This document shows positions 23,786 through 64,000 of a DNA stretch of 64,000 bases, piece by piece. The stretch's first letter is position 1. Each line of letters opens with the position of its first letter. A model generated the notes under the pieces. The model did no database searches, had not been told where the DNA came from, and was given only the letters and a program-made list of their open reading frames with translations. A program made the position numbers and the translations under genes. The DNA is from a virus (taxonomy: Duplodnaviria; Caudoviricetes), in IMG/VR virus record IMGVR_UViG_3300020047_001061, positions 8,564-72,563 of that record, one strand, 5' to 3'.

Positions 23786-25465
23786 TTACCACTCTATTGA
23801 TCTAAAGCCAAATGATTCGCTGACAAATACGTTATCCAAATGACAGTGCAAGGCCATAATCATCGCAATAATACCGTCCACCTTGGCTGACGGGTCTGCT
23901 TCGTTCTTTCTGACCTTCACGTTGCCGTTCACATCGGTGTAAACCTCGCAGTTACCAAGCTGCCAGCCAACAAAAGGGTTGCCATCGTGCTTGATGGCTT
24001 TTTTCAGAATAAGCTGCTCGGTAGTCTTGGACGGGTTAGAAAGCATAGCCATGCCCTGACCAACCTTTTTTACCGGCAAGCCATCAGCGTACAGGTTAGC
24101 CACCAAAGCAGCAGCGTTGTACGGGTCATATCCGATTTCTTTGACATTGTGCTTCTCGCATTCCTGCTTAATGTAGCTTTCAATCTCGTTTAAGTCGGTT
24201 ACGTTACCCGGCGTGAGCCTGAGAATGCCACTAGCTTGAGCCTGTAAGAAAATGCTCTTGTAATGGTTGGGAATAAGCTCAATAGATTCTTCCGGCAGAA
24301 AGAATTGGAACTTGGAATAAAAATCTTCTTCGCCATATCTGTGCAAAGTACAAACAGCGTTCAAGTCTCGGGTGTGCGCCAAGTCAAATGCAACAAACGT
24401 AGATTCTGGCTTTTCTTCCGAAATTGGCGCAACAGACTCATCCCAATACCTACGGTCAACCCAAGCTGAATTGGCCGAAACATAAATGTTTAACTGCTTG
24501 CACAGAAACTCGTTTAGGCTTGCTGGCTTGGCAGACGCTTCTTCAGCCATTTGCTGAATGTGCTGAGTCGTGACCGAAACCCCAAGCATCGGGTTCGCTT
24601 TGCCCCATACCGCAGGATCAGCCCAATTGTCTCCGGGATCAATGCTATAGAGTAAACCAAACCAGCGAAAAGAATCAGGAGCAGCGCCACGCAAGACGCT
24701 ACGAAAGTGCGAAAGGTCTTCAAAGAACTTGGTTTCCTTGGTAAAGCTGGCAGTTGTCAGATACATCCGCAGCGGGTTCTTACGAGCGCCCATGCCCGAA
24801 TGCAAGACCTCAATCGACTGCCTTTCAGTAATCTGAGCAGCTTCGTCAATCATGGCGCAAGATGGGTTTTTACCGTCACCTGTCTTACGGTTCTCCCGTG
24901 ACAGCGCCCTGTAGGTAGAAGTCGAGTCTCCAGACTTCTTTAATTCGCTGCGGTAGGCAAGGAACTTAGCGCCCAACTCGGGCCTCATGTTTTCTACAAT
25001 GGCTTTGGACGAATCAAAGCAAATAGACGCCTGATCCCTGTTGGTAGCCAGAGTAAACACTTCAGCGCCAGCATCACCAAACTGCAACTCATACAGCGCA
25101 ATGATGGACGCAATGGTTGTCTTGCCAGATTTACGAGGCACGAACAAAATGACATCAGTAACCCACCGATACGAATGATCTTTCCTGTCGCGGAAACCAT
25201 AGATGCCCGCCAAGTACATAACCTGAAAAGGCTGTAGCTCAATTGATTTCCCGGCATCCGGGCCTTTGACATGGCGGCAAAATTTGACAAATTTGAGTAT
25301 GTGTTCAGCCTTGGCAGGGACAAACTCGTAAGGCGCATCCTTACGTTCGGCCATATCCAAGAACCGCTGGCAAGCCAGTTTGACATCCTCACACGCCTGA
25401 ATGTCACCCCGAGTTACCGCTACCGCATACTCAAACGCAGGGTTAAGCAGTGGCGAATAGCTCAA
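23786..25465 (-). CDS. terL: Terminase large subunit, copy A
   Basis: Walker A VPRKSGKTT, Walker B AMIDEA, YLTTAS, nuclease AFDLA and KVDGIIAMIMA. Confidence 0.95.
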   Translation of the reverse strand: MSYSPLLNPAFEYAVAVTRGDIQACEDVKLACQRFLDMAERKDAPYEFVPAKAEHILKFVKFCRHVKGPDAGKSIELQPFQVMYLAGIYGFRDRKDHSYRWVTDVILFVPRKSGKTTIASIIALYELQFGDAGAEVFTLATNRDQASICFDSSKAIVENMRPELGAKFLAYRSELKKSGDSTSTYRALSRENRKTGDGKNPSCAMIDEAAQITERQSIEVLHSGMGARKNPLRMYLTTASFTKETKFFEDLSHFRSVLRGAAPDSFRWFGLLYSIDPGDNWADPAVWGKANPMLGVSVTTQHIQQMAEEASAKPASLNEFLCKQLNIYVSANSAWVDRRYWDESVAPISEEKPESTFVAFDLAHTRDLNAVCTLHRYGEEDFYSKFQFFLPEESIELIPNHYKSIFLQAQASGILRLTPGNVTDLNEIESYIKQECEKHNVKEIGYDPYNAAALVANLYADGLPVKKVGQGMAMLSNPSKTTEQLILKKAIKHDGNPFVGWQLGNCEVYTDVNGNVKVRKNEADPSAKVDGIIAMIMALHCHLDNVFVSESFGFRSIEW

Positions 25466-26211
25466 AACATTGCCTCCTGTTTTGGCAAGTCAACAGCAGA
25501 AGTTCCATTGAATCCAAACATATCAAAAGTGCGTTGTGCGTCTTCTATGCGTTTACAAGCAATCTCAAAGTATTTTGGTTCACGCTCAATCCCTATAAAC
25601 TTTCGCCCCATTTGAACAGCAGCCACGCCTGTTGTGCCGCTTCCCATAAATGGGTCAAAAATGGTTTCTCCACGATCTGTAAAGTCGTTGACAAATTCAG
25701 AAAATAAGCCGATGGGTTTTCCTGTTGGATGGCCGGAGTTGTTGCTACCTTTGGGCCAGTTATAGAAAGCGTGTTTGCCACCACCGTTCCAACGCTTCTT
25801 GCCAGCCTTGTGACATATAGCGATGGCCTCCCAACCCGTACCGGGTCTGTCGCCAGTAAACTGAGGCGCACCGTCTGGTTTGCGCCATATGCCAAACCTA
25901 ACGAGAAGTCCGGCTGCGTCAAGTGAATTAAGAAACTTCCATTCGCTGGTAAACACAACCCAGCGGTTTGCCATGTCAACCCACTGTTGGGCCATAGCAA
26001 GCATTTGCTTTTCGTTAATTCCATCAAACCCAAGCTCTTGACCAGCAGGCTTTCCGTCCTTAAGAACTACACTTGCAAGATGCCCAGCGTGTGTTGCTGT
26101 GTCGCCATAAGGCGGGTCAGTGATAACCGCATCCACTTTTGGTAGCGTGGGCAAGATGTCCATGCAGTCGCCAAGGTACAGGGTGGCGTTCCCTATTATT
26201 GTCTTGTTCAT
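25462..26211 (-). CDS. N6-adenine/N4-cytosine DNA methyltransferase (beta class)
   Basis: DPPY catalytic motif precedes FDPFMGSGTTG SAM-binding motif; HPTGKP. Confidence 0.9.
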   Translation of the reverse strand: MNKTIIGNATLYLGDCMDILPTLPKVDAVITDPPYGDTATHAGHLASVVLKDGKPAGQELGFDGINEKQMLAMAQQWVDMANRWVVFTSEWKFLNSLDAAGLLVRFGIWRKPDGAPQFTGDRPGTGWEAIAICHKAGKKRWNGGGKHAFYNWPKGSNNSGHPTGKPIGLFSEFVNDFTDRGETIFDPFMGSGTTGVAAVQMGRKFIGIEREPKYFEIACKRIEDAQRTFDMFGFNGTSAVDLPKQEAMF

Positions 26212-61081: not shown

Positions 61082-61109
61082 ATGCCTAGCCAGTCTAGGC
61101 ATTTTTTTT
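61082..61109 (+). terminator. Rho-independent terminator ending rightward block
   Basis: ATGCCTAG-ccagt-CTAGGCAT followed by T run. Confidence 0.75.
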
Positions 61110-61175
61110 CTTCCAAATTTTTTTTCCGAAATGCGTAGTTGGCCTATGGACTTTTTTGGCCCCTGTTACTGGTCG

Positions 61176-61250
61176 GTTCAGTCAAAAACCGCACCGTTCA
61201 GTCAAAAACTAGACTGTTCAGTCACAAACTGAACGGTTTAGTCGGGAAAA
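61176..61250 (+). repeat. Four direct repeats GTT(C/T)AGTC at exact 20-bp period
   Basis: Starts at 61176, 61196, 61216, 61236; first two read GTTCAGTCAAAAAC. Confidence 0.8.
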
Positions 61251-61608
61251 CCCAGAAAACCCAACAAAATCAAGCGTTTGCGCCCGGGTTTGCGTGTCTG
61301 ACATTAGGTTTTTTGCCCAATCGCCCCGACCCGATCAACCCAACGGGGGCCAATCCAACCCGCCCCCGCCAATTGCCCCCAAACAACCCAACCAACCCCG
61401 GGCCAACCCGGGCAAATGCGGCCCCGGTCAACCCAGCACGGCCCAAACCAATCGCCCCGGGGATTTTTGGGTTTTCCCGGTTGTTGACCGATCCAACCCG
61501 CCCCGCATTTGTGGGCATGCGCCCCCATAATCGTCCCGCCAATCGCCCCGGGATCAAACCCCGGGCCAATGACCAACCCAGCACAATCGCCCCGCAAACG
61601 GGCTTTTG

Positions 61609-61628
61609 AAGTGAGCGCTTACTAACTT
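61609..61628. promoter_or_regulatory. Imperfect palindrome AAGTGAGCGCTTACTAACTT
   Basis: AG/CT-rich island in otherwise depleted non-coding DNA. Confidence 0.45.
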
Positions 61629-61637
61629 AGCAAGCCC

Positions 61638-61660
61638 AAAAAAACCCCGGTTTCCCGGGG
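61638..61660 (-). terminator. Terminator ending the leftward terminal operon
   Basis: CCCCGG-GAAA-CCGGGG then T7 on minus strand, just after stop at 61675. Confidence 0.8.
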
Positions 61661-61674
61661 ATCGTTTGGGTTTA

Positions 61675-61896
61675 TTAAGTCAATTCCCAATAATCGCAAA
61701 CGTCAAATTGTATGATTGACCCGGGGTCATCAACCGGGGCAAACAATCCAACCGATCCAATCATTTGCAACAAATTTAAAAATCGGGGGGGTTGGCCCGG
61801 ATCATTCAGGCAAACCCCAAATGACCCGATCCGGGGGGTTGTTGTTGGCTTTTCGCCATACGTCAATTCGACATCAATATCAGAAAAACGGCCCAT
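61675..61896 (-). CDS. Hypothetical protein
   Basis: MGRFSDIDVEL...; RBS AGGGG; last gene before terminator. Confidence 0.6.
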   Translation of the reverse strand: MGRFSDIDVELTYGEKPTTTPRIGSFGVCLNDPGQPPRFLNLLQMIGSVGLFAPVDDPGSIIQFDVCDYWELT

Positions 61897-61898
61897 GT

Positions 61899-62072
61899 TC
61901 ATCCCCTGTAGTTGTTGGATCGGCCCCGATTGCGCCCGTAAAATTGCACGGGGGGCGGGGTTTGTAAAACGGTTTTAACGTCATCAATTGACATCCTGAG
62001 CATTTGCGCCAATTGGGCGATTGTCAGGTTTGGGTTGTTGTCGTAAAAATCACAAATTTGTTGATTGGTCAT
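61899..62072 (-). CDS. 57-aa protein with helix-turn-helix-like core
   Basis: MTNQQICDFYDNNPNLTIAQLAQMLRMSIDDVKTVL...; ATGA overlap; below ORF-track cutoff. Confidence 0.6.
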   Translation of the reverse strand: MTNQQICDFYDNNPNLTIAQLAQMLRMSIDDVKTVLQTPPPVQFYGRNRGRSNNYRG

Positions 62073-62278
62073 TGTTGGCCCCGGTTTGTATCGATCAAAA
62101 AATATTGTTTTTCGGTTGGTTTTCCGTTGGTGTATGCATTACGCCATCCCGGGATTGATCGGCCAACAACCAACCCGCCCCGGGTTTTCCAATCGGTAAA
62201 ATTGTCGTTTTGCATGCTTGGATGAACATCCAACGGCCCGACAATGTCAAAAAAATGCTTTTGGTTAACTTTAATCAT
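62069..62278 (-). CDS. Hypothetical protein
   Basis: MIKVNQKHFFDIVGPLDVHP; RBS AAGGGG. Confidence 0.65.
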   Translation of the reverse strand: MIKVNQKHFFDIVGPLDVHPSMQNDNFTDWKTRGGLVVGRSIPGWRNAYTNGKPTEKQYFLIDTNRGQQ

Positions 62279-62288
62279 TGTTGTCCCC

Positions 62289-63167
62289 TTAATGCATTGC
62301 AATTGCGATAACGCGGTTTTTCATTTGGGGCAATCCGCATGCATGCCCCGCCCCTGTACATGTACCGCATGCGCCCGGGCATGGAAAAACCTTAATCCCG
62401 GGGAATTTGGCCCGGATTGCCGCATTTGTGCTGGGTGATCCGTGATCGGTTGATTTTACTTTTCGCCCAATTGAAACCGCGATAAATTCCCCCCGTGTGA
62501 TCGGCAATCGTTTGACAGCGTCAACAACCGTTTGCGGGGCATTGTGACCCCCGGATATGTTTAATTGATAATTTGTAGGCCAAACCCCAACAACGTCAAA
62601 CCCCAACAATGCATGAAATGATTTGCTGTAGCCATAGGCCCGGGCGGTTGGGGTTGATGATAACAACGACATCCAAAATGCAACATCCCCCCCGTTTGCA
62701 AAATCCCCGTCAACGTACAAACGGAAATCAAACCCCCCGGGCCGTTTTGCGGCAATAGCGGCAAACGCAAACGCGATTTGATCGGGGGCAAACCGCATTA
62801 AATAGGCGTTTTGGATCATGCGCGCAAATGCGGCCGGAAATCTCCATGCCCTATAGGAATAGCAAAACGTGATGCAATCCCCCGCCCCGGGGCATGTCAC
62901 CCCCGGGATTGTAGAGAATGAGACAAACGGCAATTTGGAATTGCCCCCCAATGCAAAAATTGCCAATTGGGGCATTTTGCTCCCAAAAGTATCGGCCAAT
63001 TTGGCAAAATTGGATTGCCAACCCGGGCCGGAAAAATCGGGGTCACATTGCAATTGCAACAATTCCCGGGCGATAACGTAATCGTCACCAGTTTGCACGG
63101 CAATCGCCAATTGTTGCAACTTTGCAAATTTGGGCGCGTTTTGAAATGATTTGATTTGCATGATCAT
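62289..63167 (-). CDS. Cys-rich protein resembling phage Gp88-family / Fe-S proteins
   Basis: CPGAGDCITFCY, FRLYVDGDF, YGYSK, and C-terminal CPGACGTC (CX3CX2C). Confidence 0.55.
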   Translation of the reverse strand: MIMQIKSFQNAPKFAKLQQLAIAVQTGDDYVIARELLQLQCDPDFSGPGWQSNFAKLADTFGSKMPQLAIFALGGNSKLPFVSFSTIPGVTCPGAGDCITFCYSYRAWRFPAAFARMIQNAYLMRFAPDQIAFAFAAIAAKRPGGFDFRLYVDGDFANGGDVAFWMSLLSSTPTARAYGYSKSFHALLGFDVVGVWPTNYQLNISGGHNAPQTVVDAVKRLPITRGEFIAVSIGRKVKSTDHGSPSTNAAIRAKFPGIKVFPCPGACGTCTGAGHACGLPQMKNRVIAIAMH

Positions 63168-63280
63168 TCTCCCAACAACCCGGACACCACAAACAACCCG
63201 GCCCCGCTCACTGCAACCGTGCAAAGTGAGACAACAACCGACCCAATGCCCAACGCCAACGCCAACGCGCCAAACTGCAT
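63164..63280 (-). CDS. Small hydrophobic peptide
   Basis: MQFGALALALGIGSVVVSLCTVAVSGAGLFVVSGLLGE; ATGA overlap with next gene; start uncertain. Confidence 0.4.
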   Translation of the reverse strand: MQFGALALALGIGSVVVSLCTVAVSGAGLFVVSGLLGE

Positions 63281-63489
63281 ACTTTTAGTTCTCACACGGC
63301 CATGCGGTAATGCCCCGGTACTACGTTTCAAATGCCGGATCGGTCGGATCATGTGCAATCGCAAACAAACGGGTTACATAATGCGCCCGGATTGCATGAT
63401 CGGGGCATGATCGGGGCATGATTGGCCCCCGTTTGGCCCCCGGTTGGGCCGTTGGGCGCGTTGTTGGCCCCGGTTGGGGTTGGGGCGCG

Positions 63490-63942
63490 TCAATCCCGGG
63501 GCGGGGCGGGGTTGGGATCGGGTTGGGACATCATGCGGCCCCAATCCCCGGGGGAATAATCAACAACCCCCCGGTCGGTGTAATGCCTGAAAACCCCCCG
63601 GTTTTCCAATCCCGTTTTTACAGAATGGCACGGGGCGCATAACGATTGGAAACGGTTGGCCGTGAATGCATGCGGCCCGATTGGTTTCCATGCAATGACA
63701 TGATCAACATGCACGGCCCCAACAACCCGCCCCGCCAACATGCACGATTGGCAAAGCGGTTGTTTTGACAATTGCCCCGCCCGTATCGTTTGCCATATGG
63801 CCGTTTTGTATTCCCGATCACTTTCCCTTTTTGCTTTGCTGACATGTACCGGGGGCGCGTGATCCATGCACATGGATGACCCGGGGCGGGTTGGTTGTTT
63901 GCATCTATATACAGAACATTGGGGGCGGGGTTGGGTTGGCAT
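63490..63942 (-). CDS. HNH endonuclease (HK97 gp74-like, packaging-associated type)
   Basis: W..IR...L..QPLCQSC...HVDHVI...QSLCAPCHSVKT. Confidence 0.85.
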   Translation of the reverse strand: MPTQPRPQCSVYRCKQPTRPGSSMCMDHAPPVHVSKAKRESDREYKTAIWQTIRAGQLSKQPLCQSCMLAGRVVGAVHVDHVIAWKPIGPHAFTANRFQSLCAPCHSVKTGLENRGVFRHYTDRGVVDYSPGDWGRMMSQPDPNPAPPRD

Positions 63943-63974
63943 GCCCTAATTTTAAAGCACTGTACATAAAACCA

Positions 63975-63990
63975 TTAGGGTTTGTCCTAT
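63975..63990. promoter_or_regulatory. Operator-like motif TTAGGGTTTGTCCTAT upstream of HNH gene
   Basis: Reverse complement ATAGGACAAACCCTAA closely matches 56041-56055 and 28244-28260. Confidence 0.45.
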
Positions 63991-64000
63991 ATAGAATTTT

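What the first reader, a model, noticed from the sequence alone, without database searches (positions are those of the whole stretch)
61270..63900. A 2.7-kb gene block purged of AG/CT dinucleotides, probably the first-injected end of the phage
Seen: AG plus CT make up ~2.6% of positions here (hand count ~69 in 2,700 nt; 17 of 45 sixty-base lines have none) against ~12% in a sampled line just upstream. GA/TC is not depleted, so this is not a base-composition effect. The purge covers non-coding DNA and six leftward ORFs, which favour TTG/TTA, CAA, GCA/GCC/GCG and CGG codons. The left edge is sharp, right after the 20-bp repeat array. Established: in cos-type lambdoid phages the end next to the HNH gene and upstream of terS is ejected first, and T5/T7 leading regions are compositionally adapted. 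Inference: this is a leading region that avoids an AG/CT-keyed event, either a host defence that marks or cuts incoming DNA at AG/CT-containing motifs, or the phage's own AG-context modification, which would have to be absent for host RNA polymerase to read the earliest genes. A dinucleotide-level rule is far broader than ordinary restriction-site avoidance.
Basis: partly seen in the sequence, partly recalled or inferred. Interest (0 to 1): 0.85.

Follow-up and report, generated by a model that had tools for sequence, protein, structure and literature searches.

The report
AG/CT-free early gene cassette in phage
A 2.6-kb gene cassette next to the DNA-packaging genes of an uncultured freshwater phage has lost about four fifths of one DNA letter pair (AG/CT) on both strands through ongoing natural selection, which points to an unidentified process that reads this two-letter step on DNA.

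Summary
Window 61300-63900 has 63 AG/CT steps where 304 are expected. No other 2.6-kb stretch of the contig has fewer than 258.

The purge is equal on both strands, covers non-coding DNA and has sharp edges. Base and amino-acid composition do not explain it: GP88 has 22 steps against 96±7 in codon shuffles. It has even changed the proteins (2-3 unavoidable steps against 5-18 in relatives).

It comes with a 5.7-fold excess of CCC/GGG and with blocks of A/T and G/C letters.

Related freshwater phages keep the purge across 12-27% DNA divergence. It recurs in 14 of 80 cassettes built around the related DUF7227 enzyme. It always forms a bounded 2-4 kb block, and it abuts the terminase genes in the three relatives examined.

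The main cargo, GP88, folds like a radical-SAM enzyme. Its nearest solved structure is the DNA-repair enzyme spore photoproduct lyase.

The "first-injected leading region" reading is plausible from gene order but is not shown. It is weakened because the block carries restriction-type palindromes that the rest of the genome has purged (CCCGGG 20 against 0).

The agent that reads AG/CT is unknown. This scan has noted AG/CT purges before on other DNA (unchecked notes).

The parts
61255..63900 (.). AG/CT-purged block: 63 AG/CT steps where 304 are expected; rich in CCC/GGG, with A/T and G/C letters in blocks
63943..64000 (-). Outer control region with normal AG/CT content (element 'PE'), upstream of the leftward operon. 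The same element flanks the HNH cassette as an inverted repeat in relative L010
63490..63942 (-). HNH endonuclease gene (150 aa). It is part of a cassette found in either orientation in relatives
   Evidence: Pfam PF01844 and PHROG 144; orientation; opposite-strand joint 63178/64000 in a public run
63380..63489 (+). Short G-rich, AG/CT-free repeat stretch beside the HNH 3' end
63164..63279 (-). Small hydrophobic ORF (about 38 aa) directly before GP88; relatives have a counterpart
62289..63161 (-). GP88-family protein (290 aa), Cys-rich, radical-SAM-type fold
   Evidence: Pfam PF17338 E 2.8e-14; model pLDDT 95; spore photoproduct lyase Z 9.3 and many radical-SAM enzymes
62069..62278 (-). o69, small ORF absent from many relatives (an indel)
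   Evidence: the joint 62078 to 62285 skips it in three runs
61899..62072 (-). o57, small ORF that looks helix-turn-helix by eye (untested); weak PHROG 141 match; found only in purged blocks so far
61675..61902 (-). o75, small ORF with motif GVCLNDxxxPPRF; found only in purged blocks so far
61645..61660 (-). Intrinsic terminator that ends the leftward operon
61603..61633 (-). Conserved element 'HP', rich in AG/CT. It follows a terminator in both purged and unpurged relatives; function unknown
61300..61600 (-). Non-coding array of degenerate G-rich repeats (C-rich on the + strand) with only 3 AG/CT. It varies in length among relatives
61168..61243 (+). Three to four 20-bp iterons at the inner edge, just outside the purge. 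Relatives have other repeats here (perfect DnaA boxes in L001)
61082..61102 (+). Terminator of the rightward nin/regulator operon that converges on the block

Best explanation
What it is. The block is a self-contained early gene cassette. Reading leftward it holds a promoter region, an HNH cassette, a small membrane ORF, a GP88 radical-SAM-type enzyme, small ORFs, a terminator and a repeat array. It sits at the end of a lambdoid siphophage genome of about 37 kb, next to the terminase genes.

Shown. Continuing purifying selection on the duplex DNA itself keeps the block almost free of the AG/CT step. It spares only functional sequences: ribosome-binding sites, the terminator/HP element and control regions.

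Inferred, step 1. This cassette is the first phage DNA to be exposed and read in a new cell. It would be packaged last and ejected first, as in lambda. Its promoter lies at the outer end, and a terminator and repeat array lie at the inner end, which recalls the first-step-transfer segment of T5.

Inferred, step 2. During that time an agent acts whose harm grows with the number of AG/CT steps. It cannot be an all-or-none cutter, because 63 steps remain.

My leaning. I consider a host-side agent (an unknown defence, or a marking or adaptation process) somewhat more likely than the phage's own chemistry. Sister lineages with 80% identical GP88 in the same position differ in the purge, and AG/CT purges were noted by this scan in unrelated genomes.
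For: Real and local:
- 63 AG/CT against 304 expected, P about 1e-68, with sharp edges.

DNA-level:
- The depletion is equal on both strands (25 AG and 24 CT on the sense strand inside ORFs).
- The non-coding array has 3 AG/CT in 300 bp.
- There is no RNA-structure signal.

Selection:
- Codon shuffles give 96±6.7 for GP88 against 22 observed.
- Steps forced by the protein sequence number 2-3 in purged genes and 5-18 in unpurged orthologues.
- Single-step synonymous routes are nearly exhausted: GAG 0%, CAG 3%, GCT 3%.

Ongoing:
- Purged relatives differ by 12-27% in DNA yet each keeps 22-39 AG/CT in GP88, where 46-55 would follow from background codon use.
- 62 of 111 residual positions are private to one sequence.

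Recurrent and always bounded:
- One purged GP88 clade has 100/100 support.
- 14 of 80 DUF7227 cassettes are purged, with at least 3 changes on the gene tree. Blocks are 2-4 kb and never a whole contig.

Position and layout:
- The block abuts terS/terL in three packaging-gene contexts: G001, L065 and L093.
- A terminator and repeat array lie at the inner edge.
- DnaA boxes lie at the edge in L001. The T5 injection stop signal also has DnaA boxes (bioRxiv 10.1101/866236).

Published principle:
- Only motifs in the first-injected region decide Type I restriction of Autographiviridae phages (PMC12455610).
Against: - The virion ends and the order of DNA entry were not measured.
- The block carries words that the rest of the genome has purged: CCCGGG 20 against 0, GCATGC 6 against 1, ATGCAT 5 against 1, and 41 CCGG. 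This is odd for the most exposed DNA. Even so, many other restriction-type words are absent from the pooled blocks.
- No known defence, PAM or modification reads a bare dinucleotide. All NAG and AGN contexts fall alike, and ATG is not avoided. This fits the type I-E PAM set (from my own knowledge) poorly.
- Words avoided in the rest of the genome are not enriched for AG/CT.
- AG/CT avoidance alone does not explain the accompanying excess of CCC/GGG: 72 observed against 28.5±4.6 under AG/CT-constrained sampling.
- No anti-defence family was recognised among the cargo.
Confidence: 0.42

Rival explanations
1. The phage's own DNA chemistry. The cassette's radical-SAM-type enzyme (GP88 or DUF7227), or another phage enzyme, makes or removes a modification or lesion at AG/CT steps. 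The cassette that must be read first, or that lies closest to the newly made enzyme, therefore has to lack the target step.
For: - GP88's best structural match is spore photoproduct lyase, which works on a dinucleotide lesion in DNA (Z 9.3). Most of the top 20 matches are radical-SAM enzymes.
- Phage M6 gp53, also lyase-like, installs a DNA hypermodification (PMC8989533).
- Every purged block found here is built around GP88 or DUF7227. Many further cassettes are intermediate, and 'unpurged' GP88 modules still have somewhat low AG and GA.
- The depletion behaves like a dose effect.
- DNA methyltransferase genes lie in the terminase neighbourhood of relatives.
Against: - All loci were fetched with GP88, DUF7227 or HNH queries, so the link to the enzyme is a sampling effect until it is tested.
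- GP88 that is 80% identical sits in an unpurged cassette (L006).
- The rest of the genome has normal AG/CT and avoids AG/CT-containing palindromes as strongly as the others (AAGCTT 1, CTGCAG 0, AGATCT 0). There is therefore no sign of a protective AG/CT mark.
- The radical-SAM motif sits at the usual place but is CX5CX3C, not CX3CX2C.
Confidence: 0.2
2. General shrinking of the DNA vocabulary. AG/CT is the only non-self-complementary dinucleotide pair that can be removed from both strands of a coding sequence without losing an amino acid. Purging it may be the cheapest way to delete about half of all possible 6-base target words from a critical segment, against many different defences at once.
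For: - Enumeration shows that only AG/CT and CG leave every amino acid with a codon.
- The block holds 819 distinct 6-mers against about 1248 in equal pieces of the rest.
- 30 of the 64 six-base palindromes are absent from 8.9 kb of pooled blocks, and CGACG occurs 0 times against 18 expected.
- The same pair is purged in unrelated genomes according to unchecked notes of this scan.
Against: - CG, the other removable dinucleotide and part of very many restriction sites, is not reduced (rho 1.05 against 0.78).
- The block has 12 times more 'unsafe' palindromes per kb than the rest (15 against 1.25).
- The excess of CCC/GGG adds new repeated words such as CCCGGG.
Confidence: 0.1
3. A local mutation bias, not selection. 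Error-prone or slippage-type synthesis confined to this genome end turns mixed steps into runs (AG to AA or GG, CT to TT or CC). Only selection on the proteins filters the result.
For: - Runs and blocks rise together with the purge. AA/TT and CC/GG rho are about 1.7 and 1.5, G or C runs of 4 or more are about 8-13 times commoner, and W/S junctions number 356 against 516 per kb.
- GA/TC is also lowered.
- Non-coding DNA is affected.
- Most residual AG/CT are private to one sequence.
Against: - The block is no more diverged between relatives than its flanks: 80-85% against 74-82% identity.
- AG is five times lower but GA only 1.4 times lower.
- AT and CG steps rise, and ATT falls in favour of ATC, which run extension does not predict.
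- AG/CT persists exactly in ribosome-binding sites, the HP element and control regions.
- No known process would be confined to 2-4 kb with sharp edges.
Confidence: 0.1
4. Selection on the messenger RNA. The transcript avoids AG so that Shine-Dalgarno-like sites occur only at true starts. It avoids CU so that nothing pairs with those sites or is cut by a ribonuclease. The aim would be fast early translation.
For: - 7 of the 63 residual steps lie within 18 nt before start codons.
- Plasmid leading regions are adapted for translation rather than for motif depletion (PMC13478746).
Against: - The non-coding array behind the terminator is purged as strongly (3 in 300 bp).
- The HNH cassette stays purged in either orientation.
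- Codons rare in this phage become dominant (GGG 57% against 8%, CGG 39% against 8%).
- The many G and C runs should, in my judgement, favour pairing within the mRNA (not tested).
Confidence: 0.06
5. A compositional fossil. The cassette was imported from phages whose whole genomes lack AG/CT and has not yet drifted back.
For: - This scan noted phage lineages with genome-wide AG/CT depletion (unchecked notes).
- The cassette moves between phages with unrelated structural genes.
Against: - None of about 25 purged loci lies in a contig that is purged as a whole. The lowest whole-locus value among the 80 DUF7227 loci is 0.071.
- The purge is kept through 12-27% divergence and down to 36-50% protein identity between cassette types.
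- In the relatives that share the flank (L002, L003, L005, L021 and the window), the compositional edge lies within conserved syntenic sequence, which argues against a recombination joint.
Confidence: 0.05

Closest known systems
First-step-transfer (pre-early) segment of phage T5 and its injection stop signal
   Same: - It is a terminal segment of about 7-8% of the genome with its own early genes.
- A long non-coding region full of repeats bounds it on the inside. In T5 this region has DnaA boxes (bioRxiv 10.1101/866236). Relative L001 has three perfect DnaA boxes at the edge of the block.
- From my own knowledge, the T5 segment lacks EcoRI sites that the rest of the genome has.
   Different: - Two-step entry and terminal repeats are not shown here.
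- No pre-early T5 families were recognised in the family searches, and A1/A2 were not searched for specifically.
- The window's own phage has iterons, not DnaA boxes.
- What is avoided is a dinucleotide, not a 6-base site, and the block is richer in restriction-type palindromes than the rest.
Motif avoidance in the early-injected region of Autographiviridae phages (PMC12455610)
   Same: Selection on DNA words acts only on the leading part of the genome, while the same words are tolerated elsewhere.
   Different: There a defined Type I recognition motif is lost in a few copies. Here about 240 copies of a two-letter step are lost, proteins are altered, and no cognate system is known.
Genome-wide restriction-site (palindrome) avoidance in phages
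   Same: The rest of this genome shows it to an extreme degree. 78% of the 64 six-base palindromes lie below a quarter of expectation, with z -13 to -15.
   Different: The block follows another rule. Its palindrome count matches its own composition (z about 0), CCCGGG is frequent, and the avoided unit is not a palindrome.
Leading regions of conjugative plasmids (PMC11541004, PMC13478746)
   Same: They are the first DNA to enter, are GC-richer than the rest, are not consistently depleted of short palindromes, and carry early-acting genes.
   Different: Plasmid leading DNA enters single-stranded and is tuned for codon adaptation. This block uses the phage's rare codons and is purged of one dinucleotide.
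CpG depletion by methylation and deamination
   Same: It is a dinucleotide-level deficit that is equal on both strands.
   Different: CpG loss is mutational and genome-wide. This deficit is local and sharply bounded. It needs transversions and amino-acid changes, and G+C content does not fall.
Spore photoproduct lyase and phage M6 gp53 (radical-SAM enzymes acting on DNA), as a comparison for the GP88 cargo
   Same: Same fold class. The lyase is the best structural match (Z 9.3, 198 residues aligned). M6 gp53 shows that phages use such enzymes on DNA.
   Different: Sequence identity is about 10%. The cluster motif is CX5CX3C with a second C-terminal Cys cluster. Substrate and activity are unknown.

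Membership tests
Target-site avoidance in first-injected phage DNA | The segment is the first DNA to enter the cell | not testable with these tools
   Only gene order bears on this. The block abuts terS/terL in G001, L065 and L093. No raw reads were on hand to map the ends.
Target-site avoidance in first-injected phage DNA | Depletion beyond what base, codon and amino-acid composition give | tested here: met
   GP88 has 22 AG/CT against 96±6.7 in codon shuffles. The block has 63 against 304, P about 8e-69.
Target-site avoidance in first-injected phage DNA | The avoided word is the recognition motif of an identified defence system | tested here: not met
   All NAG and AGN contexts fall alike. 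Words avoided in the rest of the genome are not enriched for AG/CT. No dinucleotide-reading system turned up in the papers searched.
Target-site avoidance in first-injected phage DNA | The segment encodes anti-defence functions | tested here: inconclusive
   Only HNH and GP88 find families. The small ORFs match nothing in Pfam, PHROGs or NCBIfam apart from one weak PHROG 141 row for o57.
T5-type two-step DNA transfer | Non-coding, repeat-rich stop region with DnaA boxes at the inner end of the segment | tested here: inconclusive
   The window has a repeat array and iterons. L001 has three TTATCCACA boxes at the edge of the block. The window has none near the block.
T5-type two-step DNA transfer | The segment lies in a long terminal direct repeat | not tested
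   This needs read depth or end mapping. Only contigs were available.
Pfam GP88 (PF17338) | Match above the curated cut-off, with the conserved Cys, DGD and YSKS motifs | tested here: met
   54 bits against a cut-off of 24.4. The invariant columns include C90, C96, C100, D151, D153, C265, C268 and C275.
Radical-SAM superfamily (for GP88) | Partial (beta/alpha) barrel fold | tested here: met
   The model has pLDDT 95. Matches: spore photoproduct lyase Z 9.3, viperin 7.8, QueE 6.8 and many others. Foldseek alone gave nothing clear.
Radical-SAM superfamily (for GP88) | CX3CX2C cluster motif after the first strand | tested here: not met
   The motif at that place is CX5CX3C (C90, C96, C100). A CX3CX2C lies near the C-terminus (C261, C265, C268).
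Radical-SAM superfamily (for GP88) | Binds an iron-sulfur cluster and cleaves S-adenosylmethionine | not testable with these tools
   This needs biochemistry.
HNH endonuclease (PF01844) | Match above the curated cut-off | tested here: met
   26.5 bits against a cut-off of 21.4; PHROG 144 E 4e-20.
Mutational dinucleotide decay (CpG-like) | Deficit explained by one context-dependent mutation, with matching product excess | tested here: inconclusive
   AA/TT and CC/GG both rise. But G+C does not fall, GGT gives way to GGG and CGT to CGG by transversions, and the block is not more diverged than its flanks.

The most novel reading that the evidence does not exclude
An undescribed DNA-level process reads the bare AG/CT step. 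It could be a defence that marks or damages incoming DNA, or a radical-SAM (GP88/DUF7227) chemistry on adjacent bases. Phages answer it by keeping the cassette that must work first free of that step. The same process would lie behind the AG/CT purges that this scan noted in unrelated phages and in one bacterium.
Probability: 0.3. Interest if true: 0.92.

Novelty: new variant of a known kind. Interest (0 to 1): 0.8.

Why it matters
Word avoidance in phage DNA has so far been read as a footprint of systems that recognise 4-8 base motifs. This block differs in four ways:
- a two-letter step is removed from one sharply bounded cassette;
- the removal is strong enough to change protein sequences;
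- it recurs in separate lineages;
- no known reader explains it.

If the cause is a host agent, it is a new kind of defence or marking with very low sequence specificity. If it is the phage's own enzyme, it gives the large, uncharacterised GP88/DUF7227 family a testable substrate: a dinucleotide step in DNA.

The purged and unpurged versions of the same genes form a natural recoding experiment that could be moved directly to the bench.

The contrast with the rest of the genome is also useful. Near-total palindrome avoidance outside the block but not inside it shows that different parts of one phage genome live under different defence pressures.

Tried and rejected
- Near-identity searches of the phage collection with the block and with 25 kb of the window found nothing.
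- tRNA and Rfam scans of the block found nothing above chance.
- Folding energy. The mRNA and antisense strands of the block are no more structured than controls, apart from the terminator/HP window. Secondary structure as the cause was dropped.
- Helical phasing. No convincing 10-11 bp periodicity of A/T or G/C runs was found; GG/CC power was 8.4 against a control maximum of 7.7. Intrinsic curvature or a packaging-bending idea was dropped.
- Type I-E CRISPR PAM avoidance (PAM set from my own knowledge). AAG is no more depleted than AGA, CAG or AGT, and ATG is enriched. CC/GG enrichment also argues against I-F or Cas9-type PAM avoidance.
- UV dipyrimidine avoidance. TT and CC are enriched, so this was rejected.
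- Collateral nicking by the cassette's own HNH. G001 has the purge but no HNH.
- o75 as the obligatory partner of the purge. The motif is absent from 12 of 14 purged DUF7227 loci.
- 'The block is simply exempt from restriction avoidance.' This was refined: many restriction-type words are absent from pooled blocks, and only some are abundant.
- Sequencing runs. No RNA holder was listed. The DNA holders were assembled contigs with at most a quarter of the sampled words, so ends, depth and expression could not be read.
- Foldseek against the PDB gave no match at E 0.001 or better.
- Profile comparison of GP88 with the L054 enzyme gave nothing. Pfam places that enzyme in DUF7227.
- The ESM Atlas gave no lead for o75.
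- Paper searches for a published AG/CT (ApG/CpT) purge in phages found nothing relevant.


Full report
**1.

- A sliding count over the window and over the whole 72,563-base contig shows AG+CT at 2.5-2.8% of steps between about 61300 and 63900. Everywhere else the value is 9-15%.
- In 61300-63900 there are 63 AG/CT steps where the background rate of 0.117 predicts 304 (binomial P about 8e-69). The poorest other 2600-base stretch of the contig has 258.
- Base composition barely differs from the rest. Rho is 0.22 for AG and 0.21 for CT, against 0.92 and 0.95.
- All eight trinucleotides that hold AG fall 2.4- to 8-fold, so the avoided unit is the dinucleotide itself.
- The best-fitting change points are 61255 and 63821. 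The left edge lies just right of the 20-bp repeats.
- GA/TC is also lowered, but only about 1.4-fold.

**2. Context**

- The window is G000:C1:8564-72563, and the contig ends 100 bases after the block.
- The contig is an inverted join of two related phages of about 37 kb each, 70-75% identical in DNA. The block belongs to copy B, which lacks terS and most of terL at the join. This agrees with notes made on the same window.
- Copy B is a lambdoid siphophage. Its genes run: portal, capsid, tail, glycosyltransferase, endolysin, a leftward exonuclease and single-strand-binding pair, then a rightward O-like replication gene, RusA, NinB and a small regulator. Then come a terminator, the iterons and the block.
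- All block genes point leftward: HNH endonuclease, a small membrane ORF, a GP88-family protein, o69, o57 and o75. They are followed by an intrinsic terminator, a conserved AG/CT-rich element (HP) and a 300-base non-coding array of G-rich repeats.

**3. Selection, not composition**

- With the protein sequences fixed and codons drawn from the phage's own usage, GP88 should hold 96±6.7 AG/CT. It holds 22, and the other ORFs behave alike.
- The proteins themselves have shifted. The number of AG/CT that no codon choice can avoid is 2-3 in purged GP88 genes and 5-18 in unpurged orthologues.
- Inside ORFs the sense strand keeps 25 AG and 24 CT. The non-coding array keeps 3 in 300 bases. Seven residual steps lie just before start codons and eight lie in the terminator/HP element.
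- The depletion is therefore equal on both strands and independent of coding, and it yields where function demands. This points to the duplex DNA as the target.

**4. A second signature travels with the purge**

- CCC/GGG is 5.7-fold and CCG/CGG 3.3-fold enriched. Even under sampling that forbids AG/CT, GP88 should have 28.5±4.6 CCC+GGG and has 72. GGG codes 57% of Gly, against 8% elsewhere.
- A/T and G/C letters are sorted into blocks: 356 weak/strong junctions per kb against 516. The usual 3-base periodicity is gone.
- I could not derive this second signature from AG/CT avoidance.

**5. Relatives**

- GP88 homologues were fetched from IMG/VR. Nine loci carry the purged block, and eleven or more, with 42-80% identical GP88, do not.
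- On the protein tree the purged genes form one clade (100/100). Its sister, L006, is only partly lowered.
- The purged block sits in mosaic phages with unrelated structural genes. The block is 80-85% identical in DNA to G001 while the tail proteins are 24-34% identical.
- Within the purged clade the DNA differs by 12-27%. Yet every member keeps 22-39 AG/CT in GP88, where 46-55 would follow if the differing codons used background frequencies. Of 111 residual positions, 62 are private to one sequence. This is the pattern of continuing removal.
- A more distant cassette (L054) is purged too. It has an HNH that is 50% identical, o57- and o75-like ORFs at about 36%, and a DUF7227 enzyme in place of GP88.
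- Among 80 DUF7227 loci, 14 are strongly purged, 37 are intermediate and 29 are normal. The state changes at least three times on the gene tree.
- Blocks measure 2-4 kb and no contig is purged as a whole. Most of the larger blocks show the CCC/GGG excess and all show the blocky letters.
- All these loci were fetched with the cassette's own genes. The link to the enzyme family is therefore untested.

**6. Position**

- In G001 the block lies beside a Nu1-like terS and a large terminase.
- In L065 it starts 34 bases from a C5 methyltransferase gene that precedes terS and terL. In L093 it lies beside terS and terL.
- In each case it is transcribed away from the terminase genes.
- By the lambda rule (my own knowledge) the DNA end upstream of terS is packaged last and ejected first.
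- The inner edge carries a terminator, a repeat array and phage-specific iterons. L001 has three perfect DnaA boxes exactly there. This recalls the T5 injection stop signal.
Neither the ends nor the order of entry could be measured, because public runs held only contigs.
- Those contigs show that o69 is an indel. They also show that the HNH segment 63178-64000 occurs inverted in another strain, in line with the inverted repeats around HNH in L010.

**7. The fact that cuts against the simple reading**

- The rest of both phage copies is almost free of six-base palindromes. 78% of the 64 lie below a quarter of expectation, with z -13 to -15. CCCGGG occurs 0 times in 69.7 kb, and CGACG 2 times against 109 expected in a 136-kb pool of four related genomes outside their blocks.
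- The block has 20 CCCGGG, 6 GCATGC, 5 ATGCAT and 41 CCGG. Its palindrome count matches its own composition.
- It is not simply exempt, however. In 8.9 kb of pooled blocks GGGCCC, GGCGCC, GCCGGC, CCGCGG, CGATCG and CGACG are absent, while CCCGGG occurs 55 times.
- Unpurged GP88 genes are also palindrome-rich and hold 3-8 AAGCTT each.
- The cassette thus lives under a regime of its own in all lineages. I cannot explain this.

**8. The cargo**

- GP88 gives a confident model (pLDDT 95).
- An exhaustive structural comparison puts spore photoproduct lyase first (Z 9.3). Viperin, QueE, lysine aminomutase and many other radical-SAM enzymes follow.
- The cluster motif after the first strand is CX5CX3C, not the canonical one, and a second Cys cluster lies at the C-terminus.
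- One phage enzyme of this lyase-like kind, M6 gp53, installs a DNA hypermodification (PMC8989533).
- GP88 is thus a plausible DNA-acting enzyme. Its substrate is unknown, and an 80% identical copy sits in an unpurged cassette.

**9. Weighing**

- Shown: a real, sharply bounded, DNA-level AG/CT purge that selection maintains and that recurs, in a cassette that lies next to the terminase genes in the relatives examined.
- Inferred: the cassette is read first, and an agent with dose-like harm acts on AG/CT.
- I rank a host-side agent first. Sister lineages differ in the purge, and unchecked notes of this scan report AG/CT purges in unrelated phages and in one bacterium.
- The phage's own chemistry comes second.
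- The remaining readings each have specific evidence against them, given in the structured fields: vocabulary shrinking, local mutation bias, mRNA-level selection and a compositional fossil. Vocabulary shrinking rests on AG/CT being the only such pair removable from coding DNA.
- I found no published account of a dinucleotide purge confined to a phage cassette.

Noticed in passing
window 1-26580 against 26580-64000: The contig is an inverted join of two related phages of about 37 kb each (70-75% DNA identity). Copy A is cut in terS and copy B in terL, so it is probably an assembly chimera.
   Followed up: partly
whole contig outside 61255-63900: Extreme avoidance of six-base palindromes. 78% of the 64 lie below a quarter of expectation, with a median observed/expected of 0.065. 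Only CAATTG, TTGCAA, AAATTT and a few AT-rich ones are tolerated. In a 136-kb pool of four related genomes outside their blocks, CGACG occurs 2 times against 109 expected, CCWGG 31 against 210 and GGCACC 0 against 52.
   Followed up: partly
window 61397-63880: There are 20 CCCGGG sites in the block and none in the other 69.7 kb. In pooled purged blocks CCCGGG occurs 55 times but its mirror GGGCCC never. L054-type purged blocks have no CCCGGG.
   Followed up: partly
window 63178-64000; L010 44-570: The HNH cassette occurs in both orientations among relatives. In L010 inverted repeats of about 80 bp flank it, and one public contig joins 63178 to 64000 on opposite strands. It may be an invertible or homing cassette.
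   Followed up: partly
window 25462-26211 (-); L065 7124-7867 (-): DNA methyltransferase genes lie among the packaging genes. An N6/N4 type lies between the terS fragment and terL of copy A. A C5 type abuts the AG/CT-free block of L065. Their specificities are unknown.
   Followed up: no
window 61603-61633; L011, L013, L044, L046, L049, L052: A conserved element of about 24 nt (GCTAAGTTAGTWAGYGCTCACTTC). It follows a terminator wherever the upstream sequence was inspected, in both purged and unpurged phages. It is the one AG/CT-rich island inside the block. Its function is unknown.
   Followed up: partly
L006-L018, GP88 genes: Unpurged GP88 genes hold 3-8 AAGCTT sites each, where codon permutation gives 0.6-2.3. 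In L018 all four AAGCTT of the 14.6-kb locus lie inside GP88.
   Followed up: partly
L001 9162-9271 and 11810: All four DnaA-box matches of this 19.6-kb locus, three of them perfect TTATCCACA, lie at the two edges of its AG/CT-free block.
   Followed up: partly
window 62069-62278: o69 is an indel. Contigs of three public runs skip exactly 62078-62285. Where present, o69 is fully purged (3 AG/CT in 204 nt). An insert in L010 (about 600-1050) still has normal AG/CT.
   Followed up: partly
window 61300-63900: The 3-base periodicity of A/T against G/C letters, strong in all control stretches (mean power 8.6), is absent from the block (0.1), although about 80% of the block is coding.
   Followed up: no
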